Virus genome (UHGV): UHGV-0382128
From: a virus
DNA length: 64,000 nt
Direction: 5' to 3' (one strand)
Part shown: piece by piece, positions 7,420 through 60,471 of the stretch
Position numbering within the stretch: the first letter of the stretch is position 1
Layout of the letters: the number at the start of each line of letters is the position of its first letter
Notes under the pieces: generated by a model
What the model saw: the letters and a program-made list of their open reading frames with translations, nothing else
Database searches by the model: none
Told to the model about the DNA's origin: nothing
Program-made: the position numbers and the translations under genes

Positions 7420-7476
7420 GCAAAAAAAATAAGTTTACCTACCTCCGTCAAGGAGGTAGGTAGCTTTTATTTTTCT
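7420..7476. terminator. Bidirectional rho-independent terminator
   Basis: A-run 7422-7429, stem tacctacctcc / ggaggtaggta with loop gtcaa (7436-7462), T-run gcttttatttttc; lies between convergent genes. Confidence 0.8.
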
Positions 7477-31087: not shown

Positions 31088-31152
31088 AAAAAGAAAAAAA
31101 ATAAGAAAGTTAACCTACCTCCGAAGGGAGGTAGGTGCTTTTATTTATTTCG
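31088..31152. terminator. Bidirectional rho-independent terminator
   Basis: A-run, stem cctacctcc / ggaggtagg with loop gaag (31114-31135), then tgcttttatttatttc; between convergent genes. Confidence 0.8.
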
Positions 31153-32002: not shown

Positions 32003-32040
32003 AAAAGAATAAGGATTAGGGGTGCTACATAAGCACCCCG
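31997..32040 (-). terminator. Probable minus-strand terminator
   Basis: Hairpin ggggtgct-acat-aagcacccc (32019-32039) with A-rich plus-strand 5' flank; follows a small ORF. Confidence 0.5.
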
Positions 32041-32047
32041 TGAACTG

Positions 32048-32191
32048 TTAAATTTTGCAAGCCCCGCCTGAGCAGTTATCGTCTTCCGTAGTTGGGTCAG
32101 CACCCTTCTCTACGGTTTCTTCTGGGTCTAAGCCAGGGATTGCAAATTCGTCAGTTTCTTTAACGGTTTCTACTTTAACTTCTTCAGTCAT
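32048..32191 (-). CDS. Small acidic ORF (~47 aa), not in the supplied ORF track
   Basis: Hand translation MTEEVKVETVKETDEFAIPGLDPEETVEKGADPTTEDDNCSGGACKI; ends just before a terminator. Coordinates approximate (+/-2 nt). Confidence 0.3.
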   Translation of the reverse strand: MTEEVKVETVKETDEFAIPGLDPEETVEKGADPTTEDDNCSGGACKI

Positions 32192-32233
32192 TTTAGTTCC
32201 CAAATTTCTTACAAAGGTGTTAGCAGTTTTGAT

Positions 32234-32416
32234 TTAACGATGGCGAATGTGAGACAGAAGCAGGCCCATCCGTAGTGGAACTGACGCTGTCATTGCCTTT
32301 TTATACTGCACAGTGCGTACTTTCGATTTACCAGGTCCCTTACGTACGCGGTTGTAGCCAATAAAATATAGAGTACCTGTAAAGAATCTGAGGTTATGAA
32401 AATATGGCTTCTTCAT
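32234..32416 (-). CDS. Small basic protein (60 aa)
   Basis: ATG overlaps the stop of the upstream small ORF (ATGA), preceded by aagggggaa SD-like sequence; Lys/Arg-rich. Confidence 0.35.
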   Translation of the reverse strand: MKKPYFHNLRFFTGTLYFIGYNRVRKGPGKSKVRTVQYKKAMTASVPLRMGLLLSHIRHR

Positions 32417-32586
32417 TGTTCCCCCTTCTCGAATGGGTTAGATTCAAGGAACTTGGAATAAGAAAATTGAATTACTTGGAAACGTTTACGTCCTTTACGT
32501 GGCCCTTTGCACCAACGTGTAGTAACGGTACGGAATTTCTTCGGTTCGAAATACATTATCGTGAAACTAAGAACATCATCCAACAT
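32413..32586 (-). CDS. Small basic ORF (~57 aa), not in the supplied ORF track
   Basis: Hand translation MLDDVLSFTIMYFEPKKFRTVTTRWCKGPRKGRKRFQVIQFSYSKFLESNPFEKGEQ; SD aagga before the ATG. Coordinates approximate. Confidence 0.3.
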   Translation of the reverse strand: MLDDVLSFTIMYFEPKKFRTVTTRWCKGPRKGRKRFQVIQFSYSKFLESNPFEKGEQ

Positions 32587-32605
32587 AAATTTTCCTTATC
32601 GCCAA

Positions 32606-36525: not shown

Positions 36526-36544
36526 GATAATTCTCCTTTAGGGT

Positions 36545-36585
36545 AAAAAATGAAAATACCCTACTCCTGTCTAGGAGTAGGGTAG
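36545..36585 (-). terminator. Rho-independent terminator (CCCTACTCC family)
   Basis: Stem accctactcc / ggagtagggt, loop tgtcta; T-run on minus strand, then SD and the next start. Confidence 0.7.
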
Positions 36586-36588
36586 GTA

Positions 36589-42895: not shown

Positions 42896-42909
42896 GATGA
42901 CTCCTTAGG

Positions 42910-42952
42910 TCGGGTAGGGTTTACCCTACCCGATCCTATTTATTTCTTTTTC
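42910..42952. other. Perfect hairpin (cgggtagggt/accctacccg) overlapping the 3' end of the recombinase-like gene; T-run on the plus side only
   Basis: Stem 42910-42920 / 42923-42933, then tcctatttatttctttttcg on plus; on the coding (minus) side it is followed by an SD, not a T-run. Confidence 0.5.
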
Positions 42953-45605: not shown

Positions 45606-45655
45606 AAAAGTAAAGCTACCCCTAGACCACACGGTCTAGGGGTAAACTATTTATT
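45606..45655. terminator. Bidirectional rho-independent terminator
   Basis: Stem cccctagacc / ggtctagggg (45619-45642) flanked by A-run and T-rich tract; between convergent genes. Confidence 0.75.
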
Positions 45656-46575: not shown

Positions 46576-47502
46576 TTAATTGTGGGGTACGTAGCCACGG
46601 ACAAATGTAGGTGGAATCCAACAAAGTTTTCTTTTTCTTTCCCCATCTCTTGGACCGACCCAATATCTGCGCCAGTGCGCGCGACGAATATGTGCGGCCT
46701 TGGCGTGTTTGATACCTTCCATGGTTTTCAAGTCGGTGTTAAATCCCTTTAGATATTTCACTTGTTCTGGTGTGATGTCTATTTTAACGTCACGTTCACG
46801 AGGTTTGATTTCGTGACTTATGCTACCATTCTTTTTGATTTCTTTGAACTTAATGTCATTGAAAGACCCTCTGAGATTGGGCGGGATTAGCGTACAGAGA
46901 AATATCAACGATATGGCGGTTTTGGCCAGTGATAACCATAACGTCTTCTCTTGTTCGGTCTGTACGCCAGTTGTATAATCGATTTCAACAAGCCCGTTTC
47001 CAACACTACATATCTCTAACGAGCAGGTGGCGATTGTGGTAACGCCTTCTGTTAACCCGTAATCAGTATTTGTAGCAATTATAATAAACCTTCTATTCCC
47101 ATTTTTTCGATAACCGAGAAAGAAAGTCTCATCTTCTTTACCTACATCGATTGCCACAGTCCAAGTAGGTATAAAGTCCAACCATTCTTCAGGGAATTTA
47201 CTGGGCATCTCAGTCTCGAAAACAAGTTCTCTAAGTGCTCGATCGGATATTAAGGAAGCACCACCGTATAGCCATCCGATCGCCAATGTTTGAGCGTGAA
47301 GGGAACGGGGATCTTTGAGACCTAACTCAGCATCGTAGGGTATAAAGGCATTAGTTAAATGCTTACGATTCTTTTTTATCCATTTCGAGACGGGATTTTC
47401 TTTTGTTTGGTTTTCTTCCATGACATTTTCTAGATGCTGACTCCCCATTTGTCTAAGGCAGTCTTTAATACCTTTTACTTTTTTACTTTTGTACAAATAC
47501 AT
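46576..47502 (-). CDS. Paralog family A, member 2 (308 aa)
   Basis: C-terminal AAHIRRAHWRRYWVG...LCWIPPTFVRGY and an internal block similar to the gene downstream; own SD aggaga after a terminator. Confidence 0.55.
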   Translation of the reverse strand: MYLYKSKKVKGIKDCLRQMGSQHLENVMEENQTKENPVSKWIKKNRKHLTNAFIPYDAELGLKDPRSLHAQTLAIGWLYGGASLISDRALRELVFETEMPSKFPEEWLDFIPTWTVAIDVGKEDETFFLGYRKNGNRRFIIIATNTDYGLTEGVTTIATCSLEICSVGNGLVEIDYTTGVQTEQEKTLWLSLAKTAISLIFLCTLIPPNLRGSFNDIKFKEIKKNGSISHEIKPRERDVKIDITPEQVKYLKGFNTDLKTMEGIKHAKAAHIRRAHWRRYWVGPRDGERKRKLCWIPPTFVRGYVPHN

Positions 47503-47520
47503 GGTATATTCTCCTAAAAT

Positions 47521-47560
47521 GGTTAAAAAAGATAGAGGGACGCTTTAGCGTCCCTCTAAG
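47521..47560 (-). terminator. Rho-independent terminator
   Basis: Stem agagggacgc / gcgtccctct, loop ttta, T-run on minus strand, then SD aggaga + ATG. Confidence 0.7.
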
Positions 47561-53331: not shown

Positions 53332-53371
53332 GTTGAATTCTCCTGTTAGTCTACATTAAAATAGTCGTAAA

Positions 53372-53418
53372 CGTTAAAAAGAAAGGCCCTCCTGTACCTC
53401 GAAGGGTACAGGAGGGAG
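53372..53418 (-). terminator. Rho-independent terminator
   Basis: Stem ccctcctgtaccc / gggtacaggaggg, loop tcgaa, T-run on minus, then SD aggaga + ATG. Confidence 0.7.
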
Positions 53419-53420
53419 TG

Positions 53421-54383: not shown

Positions 54384-54408
54384 TGCTCACCTCGGAGTAT
54401 TTTTAATT

Positions 54409-55782
54409 ATGTTAGACTTACAAGGTTTTATTCAGATACCGGCACTGTTTGACAATCAGGACGGCGTCACCGCTCCGGTGGGCGAGCTGTCGGATTTGAC
54501 ACTCTCGTACGCGAAGAGTAAACAGACGTTTACCAAAACCAATTTGCAAGTTCAATTGGTGACTTTTACGTCTAAACGAGAAAAACAGACGGTTGTTGTA
54601 CCAGCCGAATTTTCTGATCATATTCTAACCGTTTCTCAATGGATATACCAGCAAGCCATCTTGGGGAATCTGAGAAATGACGAACTTGAATTCCAGCGCC
54701 TGTTACTAGGACAATTCCAATCAACCATTTCTGGCGTTCAGTCCGGTGCGATGATTCAGACGAACAGTAATTGGTTCCCACGCTGGGTGAGCTGGAAATA
54801 TGAAGCAACAGCAGATCAAGTACAAGATGACACTGATGTAGATAATCAGATCATTGTTTGGTTCTCGGATGAAGACTTCGATCAAGATTACACAGGGTTC
54901 GAAATCGAAGTGCAGATGCCGATTTCACCAATCGACACATTTTTGTCGACCAAGTCAGTCGTTGAAAAGGCGATGGAAGGGTTTAACCTTACCGAACACC
55001 ATAAGAAAATCAATGAGTTAATGGCAGGATTTCCTTACACCGCTATCCAAACCAACTACTATACTTGGCACGATAAAGAAAACTACGAGTCCACCCTAGT
55101 TGTCCCAATGTCGGTTATTATTTACGGCCGCGCGGGAAAAAACCCAACGAAAATAAAGCAAGCATTGCGAGAACATATTCTTGCCAATTCTAGCTTTACT
55201 GTCCCCGTCGGGGTAAAGGTATTTCCTGAAATTTTCACTACCACGAAATTTACAATTGTTCCTGGATGGAAAATTCGTGGAATACCTAATGAGGAAGACG
55301 TAGCGGCGCTTTATTCCCCTATCCTTCCATATGATTTCTGGGTCAAAGCTATCAGTCGGTTTGGAGAATGGGCAGACCTGACGGTAGCGGAAAGAAATAC
55401 TAAAACGATCAGTAAGCCTACGACAGATGTAACTGACTTACCAACCGTTTATAAATCATTAAACTGTGTTGTAATCAGTGGGCCGGAAAATGATACGCGG
55501 AAAGCGACCTTACACGAAACTATCCCGGATTATGCGTTAATTGCGACGACTAACCCTGATATTGCGCGTATGTCGAAAACAACGACCGAATGGTTGGCGT
55601 TATTCTTCCAGGCACTTATTGCTGCGGAAGAATACCACCCGTATCAAACCAGCTTAGATGTTGTAAAACTGGTCGATGAGGCTGACCCTGATAACTACTT
55701 CTGGGTGTTTGAATACGACAACGTAGAATATCGTATCCTGTCTCGGAAAGCGAAATGGTACACCGAGTTAGACGAGGAGTAA
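54409..55782 (+). CDS. Hypothetical protein (457 aa)
   Basis: ORF; only 25 bp from the divergent 54383 start. Confidence 0.5.
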   Translation: MLDLQGFIQIPALFDNQDGVTAPVGELSDLTLSYAKSKQTFTKTNLQVQLVTFTSKREKQTVVVPAEFSDHILTVSQWIYQQAILGNLRNDELEFQRLLLGQFQSTISGVQSGAMIQTNSNWFPRWVSWKYEATADQVQDDTDVDNQIIVWFSDEDFDQDYTGFEIEVQMPISPIDTFLSTKSVVEKAMEGFNLTEHHKKINELMAGFPYTAIQTNYYTWHDKENYESTLVVPMSVIIYGRAGKNPTKIKQALREHILANSSFTVPVGVKVFPEIFTTTKFTIVPGWKIRGIPNEEDVAALYSPILPYDFWVKAISRFGEWADLTVAERNTKTISKPTTDVTDLPTVYKSLNCVVISGPENDTRKATLHETIPDYALIATTNPDIARMSKTTTEWLALFFQALIAAEEYHPYQTSLDVVKLVDEADPDNYFWVFEYDNVEYRILSRKAKWYTELDEE

Positions 55783-55785
55783 TGA

Positions 55786-56409
55786 ATGGCTACGCGTTTA
55801 CCACTCCAGGTACCAGTCAACACCACGGGACTGTTTAAAGTAAAAACACCATTTACTTTGGCCGAGACCGTCATTTATACGGTAGAAGCGTCACGTACCT
55901 TCCCAGATTTAGTACGTCAGAATATTGACGTTTATAACTCGTATTACCAGCCAGTAGGGCTAGGACGTGAAGAATATTTAGCAGATGCGAATGTTAGCGC
56001 GTCGATTCTGACATTTAAATCTCGTGATGGTCAAGTTGTATACATACCTGACACCTACCTGGAATCATACCCAGGTTTATCCGGGATCACGTATCAACGA
56101 AATGTGTTAGTGGTAGATTTGGCACTGGTACCGGATTACGTGAAAGTGTCGTCTATAACAAAAGACGTTTCAGATATTCTCACGCATACACTAGGGATTG
56201 AGCCGAAAGTTGAAATTACAACGCTCGAGTATGAGGGGAAGGTAACGGAGGAACAACACTTGCAGATGGAAGCGGCACGAAAAAATAAAATTCGTGAATC
56301 TATTCCATTAGGTGAGAAAGTTGCTGCGTTGACAGAAGAGAACAAAAAATTAAAAGAGTTAAACAACCAAATGTTAGAGATTCTTAAAGCTAACGGGTTA
56401 GTTAACTAA
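55786..56409 (+). CDS. Hypothetical protein (207 aa) with C-terminal coiled-coil-like segment
   Basis: ORF 3 nt after the upstream gene; ends at a terminator. Confidence 0.5.
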   Translation: MATRLPLQVPVNTTGLFKVKTPFTLAETVIYTVEASRTFPDLVRQNIDVYNSYYQPVGLGREEYLADANVSASILTFKSRDGQVVYIPDTYLESYPGLSGITYQRNVLVVDLALVPDYVKVSSITKDVSDILTHTLGIEPKVEITTLEYEGKVTEEQHLQMEAARKNKIRESIPLGEKVAALTEENKKLKELNNQMLEILKANGLVN

Positions 56410-56455
56410 AAAAGATTACCCTACTCCTTCGGGAGTAGGGTAGCTTTTATTTTAA
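56410..56455. terminator. Bidirectional rho-independent terminator (CCCTACTCC family)
   Basis: Stem taccctactcc / ggagtagggta, loop ttcg, then gcttttatttt; between convergent genes. Confidence 0.8.
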
Positions 56456-57000
56456 ATGTCAACTTCTAGTTTACGGTAATCGATGACACCTTGAGCAATC
56501 ATAGCAGCAACATCGTTCCAAGTACGAAAAATGAAGTAAACTGTGTCTCCGTTTAAAAAGATGTTAGATTCTTTATCCGGGAAATCGTCTTCACTGAGGT
56601 AGTAGTAGGGTTTGTCGAATGGGAAGTCGCGCTCATCAGAGGAACCAAGTACCGCATAACGATTGCCACAATCAAACAGAATCTTCCAACCAGACATTTC
56701 ACTATTAGCGTCAATACGATCGACGATTTCAACGGTAATAGGAGAATGATCAAGAAAACTGATTGTAATATCTCCGTTATAACGCTTGAATCGCCAAATA
56801 TCTGTAGGTACGATTTCAGATGCCGCTATAAGGGAATAAAGTTGTGTTGATGTGATCTTTTTGTAAACGTTAGTTCCATCTCCAAAATGGTTATATAAGA
56901 AATTAGCCAGGAAATTTATATCCTTTAAACGTGTGCGGAAAACAGAACCACGACGAATACCGTAAGCCAGATGAGTTAAATATTCAGATGATGGAAACAT
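56452..57000 (-). CDS. Paralog family C, member 1 (182 aa)
   Basis: N-terminus MFPSSEYLTHLAYGIRRGSVF...FLANFLYNHFGDGT resembles that of the upstream gene (MTFPSEVIYTLANIFRRSHNF...VTADFLFNYLIGTD). Confidence 0.5.
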   Translation of the reverse strand: MFPSSEYLTHLAYGIRRGSVFRTRLKDINFLANFLYNHFGDGTNVYKKITSTQLYSLIAASEIVPTDIWRFKRYNGDITISFLDHSPITVEIVDRIDANSEMSGWKILFDCGNRYAVLGSSDERDFPFDKPYYYLSEDDFPDKESNIFLNGDTVYFIFRTWNDVAAMIAQGVIDYRKLEVDI

Positions 57001-57015
57001 TTTAATACTCCTAAG

Positions 57016-57054
57016 ATGGAAAAAGAATTAACCCTACTCCCGGAGGAGTAGGGG
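57016..57054 (-). terminator. Rho-independent terminator (CCCTACTCC family)
   Basis: Stem ccctactcc / ggagtaggg, loop cgga, T-run on minus, then SD aggag. Confidence 0.7.
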
Positions 57055-57061
57055 ACTTAAA

Positions 57062-58006
57062 TTATTTTTTGGTTTGGCCCAGCTTTTCAAGAACCAGTTC
57101 ACGAATGTACTTTTGAGTACGTTTCTTCGGCGGTAAAGCCATAAGGGTGTCAACGATTTCCTGGCCGCTGATAACCTTGCTGACGAGTTGCTGAACTTGG
57201 AAGAGTTCTGCTTCTTCGTCGCTAATTTCGTTAGCTTGGTCTTTCTGACACAACGCTTCTACCAGATCAGCTACGGATATTTCATTTTCGTCACCGGGGA
57301 AATCCAGGTTTAACGATTCGAAAACATCACGTTTAACGAGTACAGATTTCAGATCATCGTAGTTTTCACAAACGGCGACTTCTGTACCAGGTACCGTCGG
57401 TTCATTGTACTCAGCAAACAAATCTTCCATTACTTTCTGATCGTGCTCTACTTTCAAAGCGTGGAAGGTGTTGGAAGCCTTGGTTAAGACGTAACCAATT
57501 TGCTGCCAGCTACTCAGAATGAAGCAAAGCGTTTTTCCAGTTAGACCGATATTGCCCTGACGTGCGTCAAAAAAGATTTCTTCGGTGCGAGAAATCTGAC
57601 CCAGTTCGAAAAAGGTTTCTTTTTTGGCCGCGACGACTTCATACCGATTCTTACCCTGTTCTACAACAATTAACCAGTTACCAAGAATTTCGTGTTGGTA
57701 GTTTGATAGGGAGAGAGACTCGTTACCCACGAGTGGTTTAATGTCAATGGACGCCCGGCGCATACCCATTGAGAAGTTGAACTTAACCCCATTGTTATAC
57801 GCTGAGGCGTACTCGATCGGGATAATTTCTGAGACACGTTCAATATCCATAATTGTTTCCTGCGTAACACATGCAGGATCGGTACCAATTAGGTAATTAA
57901 ACAGAAAGTCGGCTGTAACGTCTGCCGATTTCCGAAAGATTGGGAAATTATGGCTGCGGCGGAAAATATTAGCCAGTGTATAGATTACTTCAGATGGAAA
58001 AGTCAT
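57062..58006 (-). CDS. Paralog family C, member 2 (314 aa) with acidic C-terminal extension
   Basis: See family C member 1; extra ~130 aa C-terminal region. Confidence 0.5.
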   Translation of the reverse strand: MTFPSEVIYTLANIFRRSHNFPIFRKSADVTADFLFNYLIGTDPACVTQETIMDIERVSEIIPIEYASAYNNGVKFNFSMGMRRASIDIKPLVGNESLSLSNYQHEILGNWLIVVEQGKNRYEVVAAKKETFFELGQISRTEEIFFDARQGNIGLTGKTLCFILSSWQQIGYVLTKASNTFHALKVEHDQKVMEDLFAEYNEPTVPGTEVAVCENYDDLKSVLVKRDVFESLNLDFPGDENEISVADLVEALCQKDQANEISDEEAELFQVQQLVSKVISGQEIVDTLMALPPKKRTQKYIRELVLEKLGQTKK

Positions 58007-58059
58007 TTTAATAGTCCTCTTTTAGGTTTGTTCAAATCAACTAAGGGTTATGTAAAAAG

Positions 58060-58539
58060 TTAAAATAAAGGCAAGTTACGCCATTGTCCTACCGAGTAAA
58101 AAGCTTTTGGATGTTTACGGATATACGCTTTCGCTTCTTCTGGCAACCAACGGTCACCTACCAGTTTTTGTTGTGCAACAATTACTGCCATCAACAAATA
58201 CGGGTTTTTCGCACCGGGAAACTTTGCATTGGTTTCTAGCGCAATATCCAACATTGACGACCAGCCCAGTAATTTATGTTGCGCCGGTAAACGTTCTTCA
58301 ATATACATCAGCCACTTCATGATTTGTTTAGGCTTATACGGACAGGTATAATTCGCCCAACAGACCATGACGAACTTAATAGCCTTCGCAATCACCCATA
58401 CAGGGACAGTCACGAAAAGGCAGAAAATAGCCAACTGCGAGGCGGGCGCTTCGACAAAAGTAACCGCTACAAGAACCATACACAGTTCAAGTACCACAAA
58501 CCAAAAACGTGTCGGATAACGCCAAATGAATTTTATCAT
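58060..58539 (-). CDS. Membrane protein with two or three N-terminal TM helices (159 aa); holin-like candidate
   Basis: Hydrophobic FWFVVLELCMVLVAVTFV and LAIFCLFVTVPVWVIAKAIKFVMV; two genes upstream of the endolysin-like SLT gene. Confidence 0.4.
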   Translation of the reverse strand: MIKFIWRYPTRFWFVVLELCMVLVAVTFVEAPASQLAIFCLFVTVPVWVIAKAIKFVMVCWANYTCPYKPKQIMKWLMYIEERLPAQHKLLGWSSMLDIALETNAKFPGAKNPYLLMAVIVAQQKLVGDRWLPEEAKAYIRKHPKAFYSVGQWRNLPLF

Positions 58540-58547
58540 AACTCTGC

Positions 58548-58590
58548 TCCTTTAGGGAATGAAAATAAAAGTACCCCTTACTCCGTATAG
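58548..58590 (-). terminator. Rho-independent terminator
   Basis: Stem accccttac / gtaaggggt (~11 bp), T-run on minus, then SD aaggag. Confidence 0.7.
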
Positions 58591-58605
58591 GGTAAGGGGT
58601 AGAGG

Positions 58606-59115
58606 TTAGAAGAACGGCTGGTTTGGAATGACAGCGTACTCTAAAATGAACATGTGTTCTGGGGCGTCTTCTTTACGCCAGACTTTGTGTGTCGACACAA
58701 GTTTTTCCAGAATCGTTAAGAAACTGCGCTGGCAGTATGTGTTTTCACCAAGCAGTAGATTTTGAAGTTCTACAGTAGCGTCCATATACGCCTGTTTAAA
58801 GACTAAATTACGGTTATACTGCCCGGTAAAATTCCAAAGCAAGACTTTCCCTTCTTCGGTTTCTTTTACCGTTGGTCGTAAACCACAAATCCACAGTAAG
58901 GCAAGGTTGACGTTCCAGTCAAACTCTAAACCTTCTTCTTCGTCATCACCGAATGCTGTGGGTAAAGCATCGTAAAATTCGTGTTTCTCTGCGAATTCTT
59001 CATCCGACTTAATCTCGTCTTCGATACTGCTTCGGACGATACTGTAAACGTCTTTCGCGGTCAATTGTGCGGCTTTTGTAATGCCTTTATACCAATCGGT
59101 TACTACGATGCTCAA
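58606..59115 (-). CDS. Hypothetical protein (169 aa)
   Basis: ORF overlapping the SLT gene by 4 nt. Confidence 0.45.
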   Translation of the reverse strand: MSIVVTDWYKGITKAAQLTAKDVYSIVRSSIEDEIKSDEEFAEKHEFYDALPTAFGDDEEEGLEFDWNVNLALLWICGLRPTVKETEEGKVLLWNFTGQYNRNLVFKQAYMDATVELQNLLLGENTYCQRSFLTILEKLVSTHKVWRKEDAPEHMFILEYAVIPNQPFF

Positions 59116-59837
59116 AGGGTAACTCCTCTATTGATTGGAAAACTCGTGTTTATCGTATCCCAAATTCTACTAACTTCCGCCAGTTGAATCTGACGTGGTG
59201 TTTTCTTCGCAAACGCAAGCTGACGTGGGGCCGAGCCCACAACAACAGGCACATCGATTTTCGCGCTATAGAACGCGGCGTCTTTCATAAAGCCTGCCAT
59301 TTCTCGTTGTGCTGCTCGAGATTTGCTTTTGATTCGCGTGTGAGCGCCACTTTCACCCCAGTGGTAAGCTAACGCAATTTCAGCCATGGTGGGCTTGCGT
59401 TTGAGTCGTTTGGTTAACCCCCTCTCAAGATGTTTAACATACGCGGCAGCCAGCAAAACAGCATTACGCGGATTATATAAATCGGCGTTCTGACTAAGAC
59501 CTAATTCTTTTCCATAAAGCCTTAGCAGATTACGCTTGGTACTTGGAAGCATCTGTACCAGGCTGTGTGCTCGTGAGCTTTTGTTGTAAGCCTTGGGATC
59601 AAAACGTGATTCGCGATAAATCAGCGTAATCATCAGCTTAGGATCAACGCCTTGCTTTCGTGAGATTTCCACAATTAACGGGCTGACTTTTTCGAACCGA
59701 TGTTGGATTTGTGCAAACTCACGCTGATGCTTAGAATGTGGCGTTGACGTTGACGCCTGTGCGTTAAACGCGAAAAGTGTTACCAGTAAAAGAAAGAAGA
59801 TACGAAACATTTTGTTTCTCCAGTTGGATTTATACAT
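59112..59837 (-). CDS. Signal-peptide-bearing lytic transglycosylase (SLT domain), endolysin candidate (241 aa)
   Basis: N-terminal MFRIFFLLLVTLFAFNAQAS; SLT core LIYRESRFDPKAYNKSSRAHSLVQMLPST...LLAAAYVKHL (catalytic Glu-Ser and the SxxGxxQ block). Confidence 0.7.
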   Translation of the reverse strand: MYKSNWRNKMFRIFFLLLVTLFAFNAQASTSTPHSKHQREFAQIQHRFEKVSPLIVEISRKQGVDPKLMITLIYRESRFDPKAYNKSSRAHSLVQMLPSTKRNLLRLYGKELGLSQNADLYNPRNAVLLAAAYVKHLERGLTKRLKRKPTMAEIALAYHWGESGAHTRIKSKSRAAQREMAGFMKDAAFYSAKIDVPVVVGSAPRQLAFAKKTPRQIQLAEVSRIWDTINTSFPINRGVTL

Positions 59838-59910
59838 TTCCGTATTCCGTAAGACGAAATGACGGCGCGGACAGCTAATACTCCTTTGTTGTGTGCCCTA
59901 ATGATAATAT

Positions 59911-60471
59911 CTATTTAAAAGAGTTTGGAATTAATGACTCTGCTTCTTGGTACAACTTATCAGGTAAGTATAACGTGTAGCACTGCCTCCTCGGTTCAAG
60001 TTTTTTGTAAAGCCACAAAAAGATTTCTTGTCTTTCCCAGGAATCTAACCACCCATTTGCCATTCCCAGTGGAGGGATAGCAACGCTGGTATTCAGATCC
60101 TCAGCACAGTCTGCTAGTGCGCTAATGCCCGCAGTAACATAAGAAACCTGTGACTTTAAACGCCAATGGGTTTTCGTGGGGAGCAAGATACACTTTTCAT
60201 CAGAGTAAACGTAAACGCTTCCAATCTTAATTTCGTCTTCACGACACCGCTTACGATAATCCTGATAAAGGTTGGGGTAGCGTTCACGGCACGCCAGTGC
60301 AATACCGCGACCCATCGCTCCTACGCAGTTAATGGTAACGACTTTATAGTCTTCGGGTGCATTAAAAAGATCGTTACCAATTTCAGATTCTTTACGTACC
60401 GTTAACATAACGAAACGTCCGGAGTTGGTGTGTAGTATTAAAACGTGTACCGCCGATTGATAGCTCGACAA
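59911..60471 (-). CDS. Putative macro-domain (ADP-ribose binding/processing) protein (186 aa)
   Basis: VVTINCVGAMGRGIALACRERYP (glycine-rich loop as in macro domains) and later VAIPPLGMANGWL; by eye only. Confidence 0.45.
   Translation of the reverse strand: MSSYQSAVHVLILHTNSGRFVMLTVRKESEIGNDLFNAPEDYKVVTINCVGAMGRGIALACRERYPNLYQDYRKRCREDEIKIGSVYVYSDEKCILLPTKTHWRLKSQVSYVTAGISALADCAEDLNTSVAIPPLGMANGWLDSWERQEIFLWLYKKLEPRRQCYTLYLPDKLYQEAESLIPNSFK

What the first reader, a model, noticed from the sequence alone, without database searches (positions are those of the whole stretch)
56452..58006. Tandem paralogs (family C) with shared N-terminal domain and divergent C-termini
The 182-aa and 314-aa products share an N-terminal domain (MFPSSEYLTHLAYGIRRGSVF...FLANFLYNHFGDGT vs MTFPSEVIYTLANIFRRSHNF...VTADFLFNYLIGTD). 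The longer one adds an acidic ~130-aa tail. Each gene has its own CCCTACTCC-type terminator and SD, i.e. they are independently expressed modules.
Basis: seen in the sequence. Interest (0 to 1): 0.45.

Follow-up and report, generated by a model that had tools for sequence, protein, structure and literature searches.

The report
Swappable-domain jumbo-phage gene and its truncated copy
Two neighbouring genes of a giant enterobacterial phage are real duplicates: one has a fast-evolving front domain, exchanged between near-identical phages, joined to a conserved tail, and the other is that front domain alone. This pattern suggests an arms-race protein, but its function is unknown.

Summary
ORFs 56452-57000 (182 aa) and 57062-58006 (314 aa), both on the minus strand, are true paralogs (BLASTP E=7e-10; independent profile E=3e-6; 0 of 2000 shuffles matched). 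The similarity covers the whole short protein, not only its N-terminus. The 182-aa gene is the N-domain alone; it has no "divergent C-terminus".

The main new result concerns codons ~10-205 of the long gene. They form an allelic cassette that is exchanged between otherwise 97-100% identical phages (52% aa identity inside the cassette). The C-terminal tail stays 87-100% identical. N-domain dN/dS is generally several times that of the flanking genes.

The short paralog is confined to this lineage and is always present there; exactly two copies exist per genome.

"Independently expressed" is not supported. The hairpins belong to a genome-wide intercistronic type, and there is little room for a promoter.

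Most likely function (inferred, not shown): a non-virion adaptor with a variable target-recognition domain and a conserved docking tail, plus a free recognition domain. Interest is moderate.

The parts
57062..58006 (-). Gene for the 314-aa two-module protein, ortholog of SPN3US gp201 / PHROG 11818
   Evidence: ORF. PHROG 11818 at 3e-27. Positional and sequence ortholog of SPN3US_0201, phiEaH2 gp122, Asesino gp220 and ChrisDB gp222.
57437..58006 (-). N-terminal domain (aa 1-190): helical N-terminus plus a beta-rich core. This is the domain shared with the 182-aa paralog.
   Evidence: Alignment. AF2 models. Nearly invariant positions P4, A12, R16, P63, F78, W111, E130, F133, V160, W167.
57390..57980 (-). 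Exchangeable allelic cassette (codons ~10-205, covering most of the N-domain plus the linker)
   Evidence: About 60% nt identity to L005 and L018, while both flanks are mostly 90-100% identical in 40-nt bins. dS is 1.5 inside the cassette and 0.03-0.15 in the flanks.
57065..57394 (-). Conserved C-terminal tail (aa ~205-314): an acidic helical region ending in the basic motif ALPPKKRTQKYIRELV
   Evidence: 87-100% aa identity across all lineage members. The motif is conserved in Erwinia and Salmonella phage orthologs. Charge.
56452..57000 (-). Gene for the 182-aa stand-alone N-domain paralog
   Evidence: ORF. Homology. Present in all 15 related loci examined in which that position is included, and absent from the Erwinia and SPN3US phages examined.
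57032..57053 (-). Intercistronic hairpin between the two genes, followed by the interrupted T-run TTAATTCTTTTT
   Evidence: Folding energy -18.3 kcal/mol, z=-4.2.
56417..56442 (.). Hairpin between the 182-aa gene and the convergent DUF7194 gene, with T-runs on both strands (bidirectional terminator-like)
   Evidence: Folding energy -20.7 and -24.4 kcal/mol on the two strands.
58015..58019 (-). Shine-Dalgarno GAGGA of the 314-aa gene
   Evidence: Read from the sequence.
57008..57012 (-). Shine-Dalgarno AGGAG of the 182-aa gene
   Evidence: Read from the sequence.

Best explanation
Shown. The 314-aa gene is this phage's version of a small, clade-restricted chimallivirus family (SPN3US gp201 / PHROG 11818). 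It has two modules: a ~190-aa N-terminal alpha/beta domain with no detectable known fold, and a conserved acidic helical tail ending in a basic ALPxKKRT motif. The 182-aa gene is a lineage-specific tandem copy of the N-domain alone. Among closely related phages, the N-domain of the long gene is replaced as a cassette by homologous recombination, anchored in the conserved first ~9 codons plus RBS on one side and the conserved tail on the other. The whole two-gene module also moves between divergent backbones.

Inferred. The long protein is a soluble, non-virion adaptor. Its conserved tail docks on an invariant partner, probably phage-encoded. Its variable N-domain binds a strain-variable target, such as a host defence or surface-independent host factor, or a component of a competing phage, and is under diversifying pressure. 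The 182-aa protein is a free copy of the recognition domain. It either covers a second target or modulates the long protein by competing for the same ligand. It is probably made from the same leftward transcript by read-through of the weak inter-gene hairpin.
For: Paralogy.

Orthology and synteny: the order SLT, 169 aa, membrane protein, gp201-like, then convergent DUF7194 and tail protein is seen.

Family size: 19 clusters among 1.84e9 representatives, of which the 16 that look genuine (excluding three long repeat proteins) resemble jumbo-phage gp201-like proteins.

Cassette exchange: WIN against L005 and L018 shows 52% and 50% aa identity in the N-domain. In the same comparisons the tail is 97-98% identical and the flanking genes (SLT, 169 aa, 159 aa, DUF7194, VSP) are 93-100% identical. 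The breakpoints lie at ~57390 and ~57980. Five allele clusters occur among 19 sequences. Alleles are shuffled relative to the backbone clades.

dS incongruence and elevated dN/dS: excluding one near-identical pair, N-domain dN/dS is 0.14-0.52, mostly 0.23-0.35. The tail is 0.04-0.16 and the flanks are 0.00-0.19.

Where the variation lies: in discrete segments (aa 18-30, 40-47, 84-108, 170-200) around an invariant core. No polar catalytic-looking set is conserved.

Solubility: both proteins are soluble and acidic, with no TM segment.

Virion status: SPN3US gp201 is missing from the 83-protein virion list, which does include gp202 and gp203 (PMC5105663 Table S4).

Host range of alleles: eight of the ten 90%-identity clusters examined carry Salmonella-named members, and several also carry E. 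coli, Shigella or Enterobacter members. Any host target is therefore strain-level, not genus-level.

Against: Gene-wide dN/dS stays below 1, so positive selection is not demonstrated. Relaxed constraint combined with recombination would give similar numbers.

The docking role of the tail is pure inference, and its AF2 confidence is low (pLDDT 40-68).

The 182-aa alleles do not co-vary with the N-domain alleles of the long gene. This argues against a tight specific pairing between the two proteins.

Non-virion status is known only for the distant SPN3US ortholog.
Confidence: 0.4

Rival explanations
1. The pair is an envelope or lysis-timing accessory. The two proteins act with the upstream secreted SLT transglycosylase and the 159-aa two-TM membrane protein, for example as cytoplasmic regulators of a holin-like protein. 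That might influence delayed lysis or persistence.
For: Same-strand gene array: SLT with a signal-peptide-like N-terminus, then 169 aa, then a 159-aa protein with at least 2 TM segments, then 314 aa, then 182 aa. SPN3US gp198 is annotated as a putative endolysin. The lineage belongs to the jumbo phages reported to persist in isolates (bioRxiv 10.1101/2024.12.31.630880).
Against: Adjacency is the only link. A GH108 muramidase, a more typical endolysin, lies elsewhere in the related complete genome. The membrane protein does not co-vary with the N-domain alleles (99% against 52%). It is also not conserved across genera: no significant match in the Erwinia or SPN3US loci, and genes of different length (86 aa in SPN3US, 194 aa in ChrisDB) occupy its position.
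Confidence: 0.12
2. The pair is a determinant of phage-versus-phage competition or incompatibility (superinfection exclusion, or discrimination between co-infecting relatives). Allelic types would mark compatibility groups.
For: Discrete allele classes are reshuffled among co-circulating near-identical phages. Alleles are not tied to host genus. Persistent infection makes superinfection by relatives likely.
Against: There is no direct evidence, no nuclease or toxin-like domain, and no membrane anchor typical of exclusion proteins.
Confidence: 0.15
3. The pair is a virion or assembly component linked to the adjacent tail genes, with the variable N-domain acting as a receptor-binding or fibre-adaptor module.
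For: It lies next to the tail-associated gp202 and gp203 homologs. The layout of a conserved anchor plus an exchangeable domain resembles tail-fibre modularity.
Against: SPN3US gp201 was not detected in virions, whereas gp202 and gp203 were. It is on the opposite strand from the tail genes. There are no fibre-like repeats or trimeric beta-helix features. Dedicated tail-fibre and receptor-recognising genes lie elsewhere in the related genome.
Confidence: 0.07
4. The pair is dispensable, drifting ORFan genes with no specific role. The variability would reflect weak constraint in a recombination-prone intergenic-like region.
For: Function is unknown, the family is tiny, and dN/dS is higher than in the neighbours.
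Against: Both ORFs are intact in all 15 related loci examined that include the position. dN/dS of 0.05-0.5 indicates purifying selection. The tail is more conserved than the flanking genes, and the core residues are invariant across genera.
Confidence: 0.1

Closest known systems
SPN3US gp201 (SPN3US_0201, YP_009153495.1) and PHROG 11818, with Erwinia phage orthologs (ChrisDB gp222, phiEaH2 gp122, Asesino gp220)
   Same: Same genomic slot, between the SLT/169-aa genes and the convergent DUF7194 and tail protein genes. Same two-module plan, same N-terminal helix motif (FP..V..LA..LR), the same invariant Trp residues, and the same C-terminal ALPxKKRT motif.
   Different: Identity is only 19-25%. 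The linker is 10 to ~120 aa longer in the Erwinia and Salmonella phage versions. Those phages have a single copy and no stand-alone N-domain paralog. No function is known for any member.
Modular phage proteins with a conserved anchor and an exchangeable specificity domain, such as tail fibres and receptor-binding proteins (own knowledge)
   Same: A conserved module provides a recombination anchor and a presumed docking function. The other module occurs as discrete alleles swapped between close relatives.
   Different: The orientation is reversed (variable N-terminus, conserved C-terminus). The protein is apparently non-virion, lacks fibre-like sequence features, and has a small globular alpha/beta domain.
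Fast-evolving phage counter-defence or host-takeover accessory genes in variable loci (own knowledge; a general class)
   Same: Clade-restricted ORFan, soluble and acidic. It shows elevated dN/dS, allelic replacement and tandem duplication, and has neighbours with possible counter-defence flavour (macro domain, GNAT).
   Different: No tested activity, no match to any described anti-defence protein, and the target is unknown.
Rho-independent terminators and intercistronic hairpins of large lytic phages
   Same: GC-rich 9-12 bp stem, tetraloop and T-run.
   Different: The inter-gene copy has an interrupted T-run and lies inside an apparent operon. The same stem sequence recurs at three sites, and related stems occur genome-wide. 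Termination was not tested.

Membership tests
PHROG 11818 / SPN3US gp201 family | Significant match to the family profile | tested here: met
   The 314-aa protein matches at E=3e-27 over 2-293 of 295 profile positions. The 182-aa protein matches at E=0.018 over profile positions 6-176, backed by an independent HMM at E=2.9e-6.
PHROG 11818 / SPN3US gp201 family | Conserved genomic position next to the DUF7194 (phiKZ gp161-like) and gp203-like tail genes, downstream of SLT and the PHROG 8114 gene | tested here: met
   Synteny is seen in phiEaH2, ChrisDB, SPN3US and Asesino.
PHROG 11818 / SPN3US gp201 family | Two-module architecture with a C-terminal ALPxKKRT tail | tested here: met
   Met by the 314-aa protein. 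The 182-aa paralog lacks the tail entirely, so it is a truncated derivative rather than a full-architecture member.
Intrinsic (Rho-independent) terminator | Stable GC-rich hairpin immediately followed by a U-tract | tested here: met
   The copy at 57032-57053 has an interrupted tract (UUAAUUCUUUUU).
Intrinsic (Rho-independent) terminator | Actually terminates transcription by the RNA polymerase that reads this region | not testable with these tools
   Chimalliviruses use their own multisubunit RNAPs. No transcript data are available for this lineage.
Virion structural or tail-fibre protein | Present in purified virions | tested here: not met
   By literature, for the ortholog only. SPN3US Table S4 lists gp193, gp202, gp203 and gp214 but not gp201 (PMC5105663 supplement).
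Holin, spanin or membrane lysis protein | Transmembrane segment(s) or a lipoprotein signal | tested here: not met
   The maximum 19-residue Kyte-Doolittle hydropathy is 0.95 for the 314-aa protein and 0.87 for the 182-aa protein. The neighbouring 159-aa protein reaches 2.33.
Known defence-system proteins (PADLOC) and curated Pfam/NCBIfam families | Profile match | tested here: not met
   No hit for either protein.
Anti-defence protein | Demonstrated inhibition of a host defence system, or homology to a protein with that activity | not testable with these tools
   No anti-defence library was available. There is only indirect evolutionary evidence.

The most novel reading that the evidence does not exclude
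The N-domain is a previously unseen fold that serves as a plug-in specificity module for a chimallivirus counter-defence or host-takeover adaptor. The conserved acidic tail with its basic C-terminal peptide would deliver it to a fixed phage structure, for example the nuclear shell or import machinery, or a phage polymerase. The free 182-aa copy would widen or tune the target range. Allele type would then determine which strains these persistent jumbo phages can inhabit.
Probability: 0.15. Interest if true: 0.7.

Novelty: new member of a known kind. Interest (0 to 1): 0.4.

Why it matters
Most genes of nucleus-forming jumbo phages have no known function. Their host-interaction genes are especially hard to find because the nuclear shell already blocks DNA-targeting defences.

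A non-virion locus showing textbook signs of an arms race is a good candidate for a specificity determinant. The signs here are discrete alleles swapped between otherwise near-identical genomes, a conserved docking module, and a duplicated recognition domain.

The lineage occurs as ~222-kb episome-like contigs in hundreds of Salmonella, E. coli, Shigella and Enterobacter isolate assemblies. Each phage copy therefore comes with its host genome, so allele-to-host association can be tested directly by computation. If nothing emerges, this remains an ordinary fast-evolving ORFan pair.

Tried and rejected
- Megablast of the locus against cultured phages found no match at 85% identity or more.
- Pfam, NCBIfam and PADLOC scans of both proteins and of 27 family members gave nothing credible.
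- A PDB sequence profile search gave a best E of 0.17, which is noise.
- BFVD returned only family members. The afdb50 library was unavailable.
- The exhaustive profile search added three long Ig-repeat proteins and one scrambled-looking 138-aa entry. I set these aside as probably spurious.
- A search for a third paralog found none, either in the 64-kb window or in a complete 221,873-bp relative.
- I considered that the similar SD context of the two genes shows the RBS was duplicated with the gene. I rejected this because CTAAAGGAG..ATTAAAATG is the phage-wide RBS context.
- I considered that the identical hairpin stems prove the terminator was duplicated with the gene. This stays open, because the same stem also occurs at 36559 and related stems are common.
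- I tested whether N-domain alleles are host-genus specific. This is rejected.
- Literature searches for SPN3US gp201 and for transcriptomes found nothing.
- The search for related loci failed with the alignment query, and the genome-contig scan with the 169-aa protein found nothing.
- The sigma-70 promoter scan is uninformative for this kind of phage.

Full report
**1. What is there**

The two ORFs are exactly as described. A 182-aa ORF lies at 56452-57000 and a 314-aa ORF at 57062-58006, both on the minus strand, with the quoted N-termini. Each ATG is preceded by a Shine-Dalgarno sequence: GAGGA at 58015-58019 and AGGAG at 57008-57012. Hairpins with the stem CCCTACTCC/GGAGTAGGG lie at 57032-57053, between the genes, and at 56419-56440, after the short gene. 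A third copy is at 36559-36582, and none are expected by chance. They fold at -18 to -24 kcal/mol, with z-scores of -4.2 to -5.8.

**2. Is the similarity real?**

Yes.
- BLASTP between the two proteins gives E=7e-10 (27% identity).
- An HMM built only from long-family members, excluding every short-family sequence, hits the window's 182-aa protein at E=2.9e-6 and all seven short-family sequences at 3e-7 to 2e-3. None of 2000 shuffled copies was reported.
- PHROG 11818 matches both proteins.
- A confident AF2 model of the short protein (pLDDT 82.7, pTM 0.81) superposes on BFVD models of long orthologs from Erwinia phages, with TM 0.68 and E 4e-9 to 2e-7.

The alignment spans residues 2-181 of the short protein and 3-187 of the long one. 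The short protein is therefore the shared domain and nothing else. It has no "divergent C-terminus"; it simply lacks the 127-aa tail. That tail is acidic overall, but its last 25 residues are basic (+6).

**3. Genomic context**

The window comes from a chimallivirus-type jumbo phage. The adjacent 457-aa virion protein is 84% identical to Erwinia phage phiEaH2 gp124 and 78% identical to Salmonella phage SPN3US gp203. The 207-aa neighbour is DUF7194, the homolog of phiKZ gp161.

The leftward gene array is: macro-domain protein, secreted SLT transglycosylase, a 169-aa protein (PHROG 8114), a 159-aa membrane protein, then the 314-aa and 182-aa genes. It is convergent with the two tail-associated genes.

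The same slot holds one long gene in phiEaH2 (gp122, 408 aa), Asesino (gp220, 397 aa), ChrisDB (gp222, 315 aa) and SPN3US (SPN3US_0201, 377 aa). All of these align with the 314-aa protein at 19-25% identity. Their neighbours are 50-84% identical. The 314-aa gene is therefore the fast-evolving ortholog of SPN3US gp201.

SPN3US gp201 is absent from the 83-protein virion proteome, which does contain gp202 and gp203 (PMC5105663 Table S4).

**4. How big is the family?**

It is tiny. An exhaustive HMMER scan of 1.84 billion representative proteins found 19 clusters. The 16 that look genuine (excluding three long repeat proteins) resemble jumbo-phage gp201-like proteins. Only one full-length cluster corresponds to the stand-alone short form.

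The model shows three or four N-terminal helices, an eight-stranded beta core and a closing helix. Positions conserved across genera are mostly hydrophobic or structural (P4, A12, P63, F78, W111, F133, V160, W167), plus R16 and E130. This looks like a binding scaffold, not an enzyme.

**5. Copy number**

Every related locus I examined that includes the position has both genes in tandem with both hairpins. There are 15 such loci: Logan, ENA, NCBI and IMG/VR contigs plus one RefSeq record. One further locus (L011) begins at the short gene and so is uninformative for the long gene.

Profile searches found no third copy in the 64-kb window or in the complete 221,873-bp relative NZ_CP173450.1. The Erwinia and SPN3US-type phages have the long gene only. 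The most parsimonious history is a partial tandem duplication in the ancestor of this lineage. The short protein is closer to its own lineage's N-domains (24-29% identity) than to those of other genera (14-19% in alignment A3; 22-25% in local BLASTP segments).

**6. The main new observation: domain-level allelic exchange**

- Exchange within one backbone. L005 and L018 share the window's backbone. Their SLT, 169-aa, 159-aa, DUF7194 and VSP proteins are 93-100% identical to the window's. Their long-gene N-domain is only 52% and 50% identical, while the tail of the same gene is 97-98% identical.
- Breakpoints. At the DNA level, identity falls to ~60% between about 57390 and 57980 and is mostly 90-100% on both sides. 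The replaced block is therefore codons ~10-205. It is bounded by the conserved first nine codons plus RBS on one side and by the tail on the other.
- Synonymous divergence. dS is 1.5 inside the block and 0.03-0.15 in the flanks. This is recombination, not fast drift.
- Alleles shared across backbones. L005 and L012 share an N-domain allele (89% identical), although their flanking proteins are 78-87% identical.
- The whole module also moves. Between the window and L003, dS for the two-gene module is 0.29-0.40, while the flanks are saturated at 1.0-3.1.
- Allele diversity. Nineteen long-gene sequences fall into five N-domain clusters (at least 80% identity within a cluster, down to 49% between clusters). 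Their tails are 87-100% identical.
- Location of the variation. It is concentrated in aa 18-30, 40-47, 84-108 (a low-confidence loop) and 170-200, around an invariant core.
- Selection. Excluding one near-identical pair, N-domain dN/dS is 0.14-0.52, mostly 0.23-0.35. It is 0.05-0.28 for the short gene, 0.04-0.16 for the tail and 0.00-0.19 for the flanks. This is elevated but still below 1.
- The short gene. It has one divergent allele (55-59% identical, in L009), and otherwise its variation clusters in aa ~33-100. Its alleles do not track the long gene's alleles.
- Host range. Allele clusters are not tied to host genus. Eight of the ten 90%-identity clusters examined carry Salmonella-named members, and several also carry E. 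coli, Shigella or Enterobacter members.

**7. Expression**

The claim of independent expression is not supported. Only 31 nt separate the inter-gene hairpin from the short gene's ATG, and that stretch includes the SD.

Hairpin, T-run and then a CCTAAAGGAG-type SD recurs across the window, for example at 36526-36588, 53332-53420 and 58540-58605, with related CCTAC-rich stems. It is therefore a house style of intercistronic elements. The similar RBS context of the two genes is not evidence of co-duplication.

The inter-gene hairpin has an interrupted U-tract. The downstream hairpin has T-runs on both strands and serves the convergent DUF7194 gene as well. Read-through expression of the short gene seems at least as likely as separate transcription. 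Promoters for phage-encoded RNAPs cannot be scanned here.

**8. Mechanism**

Shown: a two-module protein, a truncated tandem paralog, cassette exchange of the N-domain, a conserved tail, solubility, and non-virion status of the SPN3US ortholog.

Inferred: the tail docks on an invariant partner, probably phage-encoded. The N-domain recognises a strain-variable target. The free domain adds or modulates specificity. I put this at about 0.4.

Rivals:
- A phage-versus-phage compatibility determinant (0.15).
- A lysis or envelope accessory working with the SLT and the membrane protein (0.12). This is weakened by a GH108 muramidase elsewhere in the related genome and by the lack of co-variation with the membrane protein.
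- A drifting dispensable ORFan pair (0.10). This is contradicted by universal intactness and purifying selection.
- A virion or fibre adaptor (0.07). This is contradicted by the SPN3US proteome.

**9. Novelty and verdict**

Both genes are already annotated as hypothetical proteins in public records, for example WP_404998836.1 and WP_404998835.1 on NZ_CP173450.1. The long one belongs to an existing PHROG.

New here are the demonstration of full-length paralogy, the two-module dissection, the lineage-specific stand-alone copy, and the cassette exchange. This makes it a new member of a familiar kind of thing: a fast-evolving, recombining phage accessory locus. Its fold and function remain unknown. 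Interest is moderate at 0.4. It would rise considerably if allele type turned out to determine which strains these persistent jumbo phages can occupy.

Noticed in passing
whole window; tested with 54400-59900: The phage lineage has no cultured representative at 85% nt identity or more in INPHARED. It is deposited as a circular ~222-kb "plasmid" in complete genomes: E. coli 98232 NZ_CP173450.1 and Enterobacter ludwigii NZ_CP134650.1. It also appears as 220-227-kb contigs in many Salmonella, E. coli and Shigella isolate assemblies. This fits the "Seoul-like persistent jumbo phages" described in bioRxiv 10.1101/2024.12.31.630880, so the phenomenon is already reported.
   Followed up: partly
window 7420-7466, 31088-31144, 36526-36588, 42896-42939, 45606-45650, 53332-53420, 58540-58605: There is a genome-wide family of intergenic hairpins with related CCTAC-rich stems (ACCTACCTCC, CCCTACTCC, CCCCTTAC, GGGTAGGG). 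They are often followed by a T-run and a CCTAAAGGAG-type SD. Whether they are terminators, RNA-stability elements or processing sites is unknown.
   Followed up: partly
window 58060-58539 (-): A 159-aa basic protein has at least two N-terminal TM segments and a ~90-aa soluble C-terminal domain (PHROG 20030, function unknown). It has no significant match in the Erwinia or SPN3US loci, where genes of different length (86 aa in SPN3US, 194 aa in ChrisDB) occupy its position. It is a possible holin-like or envelope protein, sitting two genes downstream of a secreted SLT.
   Followed up: partly
window 59112-59837 (-) and 59911-60471 (-): The SLT transglycosylase has a signal-peptide-like N-terminus. 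Immediately upstream is a macro-domain (ADP-ribose-binding/processing) protein. In related loci a GNAT acetyltransferase and an 834-aa SMC_N/AAA_15 ATPase lie further upstream. The macro domain and GNAT could be counter-defence genes.
   Followed up: no
window 57062-57394 compared with L006: L006 has an N-domain that is 100% aa-identical to the window's (dS 0.016), but its C-tail has dS 0.22 and its 182-aa gene dS 0.16. This indicates a further recombination breakpoint inside the long gene, at the domain boundary.
   Followed up: partly
window 46647-47560 and 32003-32605: Two gaps of 914 and 603 nt lie between the ORFs retained by a crude non-overlapping gene call (at least 60 aa). In 32003-32605, three 60-77-aa ORFs were left out of the gene list. 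The first gap starts with a hairpin and an SD-ATG, so small genes or RNAs may be present.
   Followed up: no
proteins P0067 and BFVD A0A142IIR4/A0A142IIR5 (SEGD1): P0067, a 138-aa entry in the representative library, looks like scrambled segments of SPN3US gp201. In Salmonella phage SEGD1 the gp201 ortholog appears split into 142-aa and 123-aa ORFs. These are probably assembly or annotation artefacts, or frameshifts.
   Followed up: no
L012 6001-7035 (protein P0006, 344 aa): One relative carries a ~30-aa acidic insertion in the linker between the N-domain and the tail. Erwinia and SPN3US orthologs have linkers up to ~120 aa longer. Linker length is therefore free to vary, which fits two independently folding modules.
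   Followed up: no
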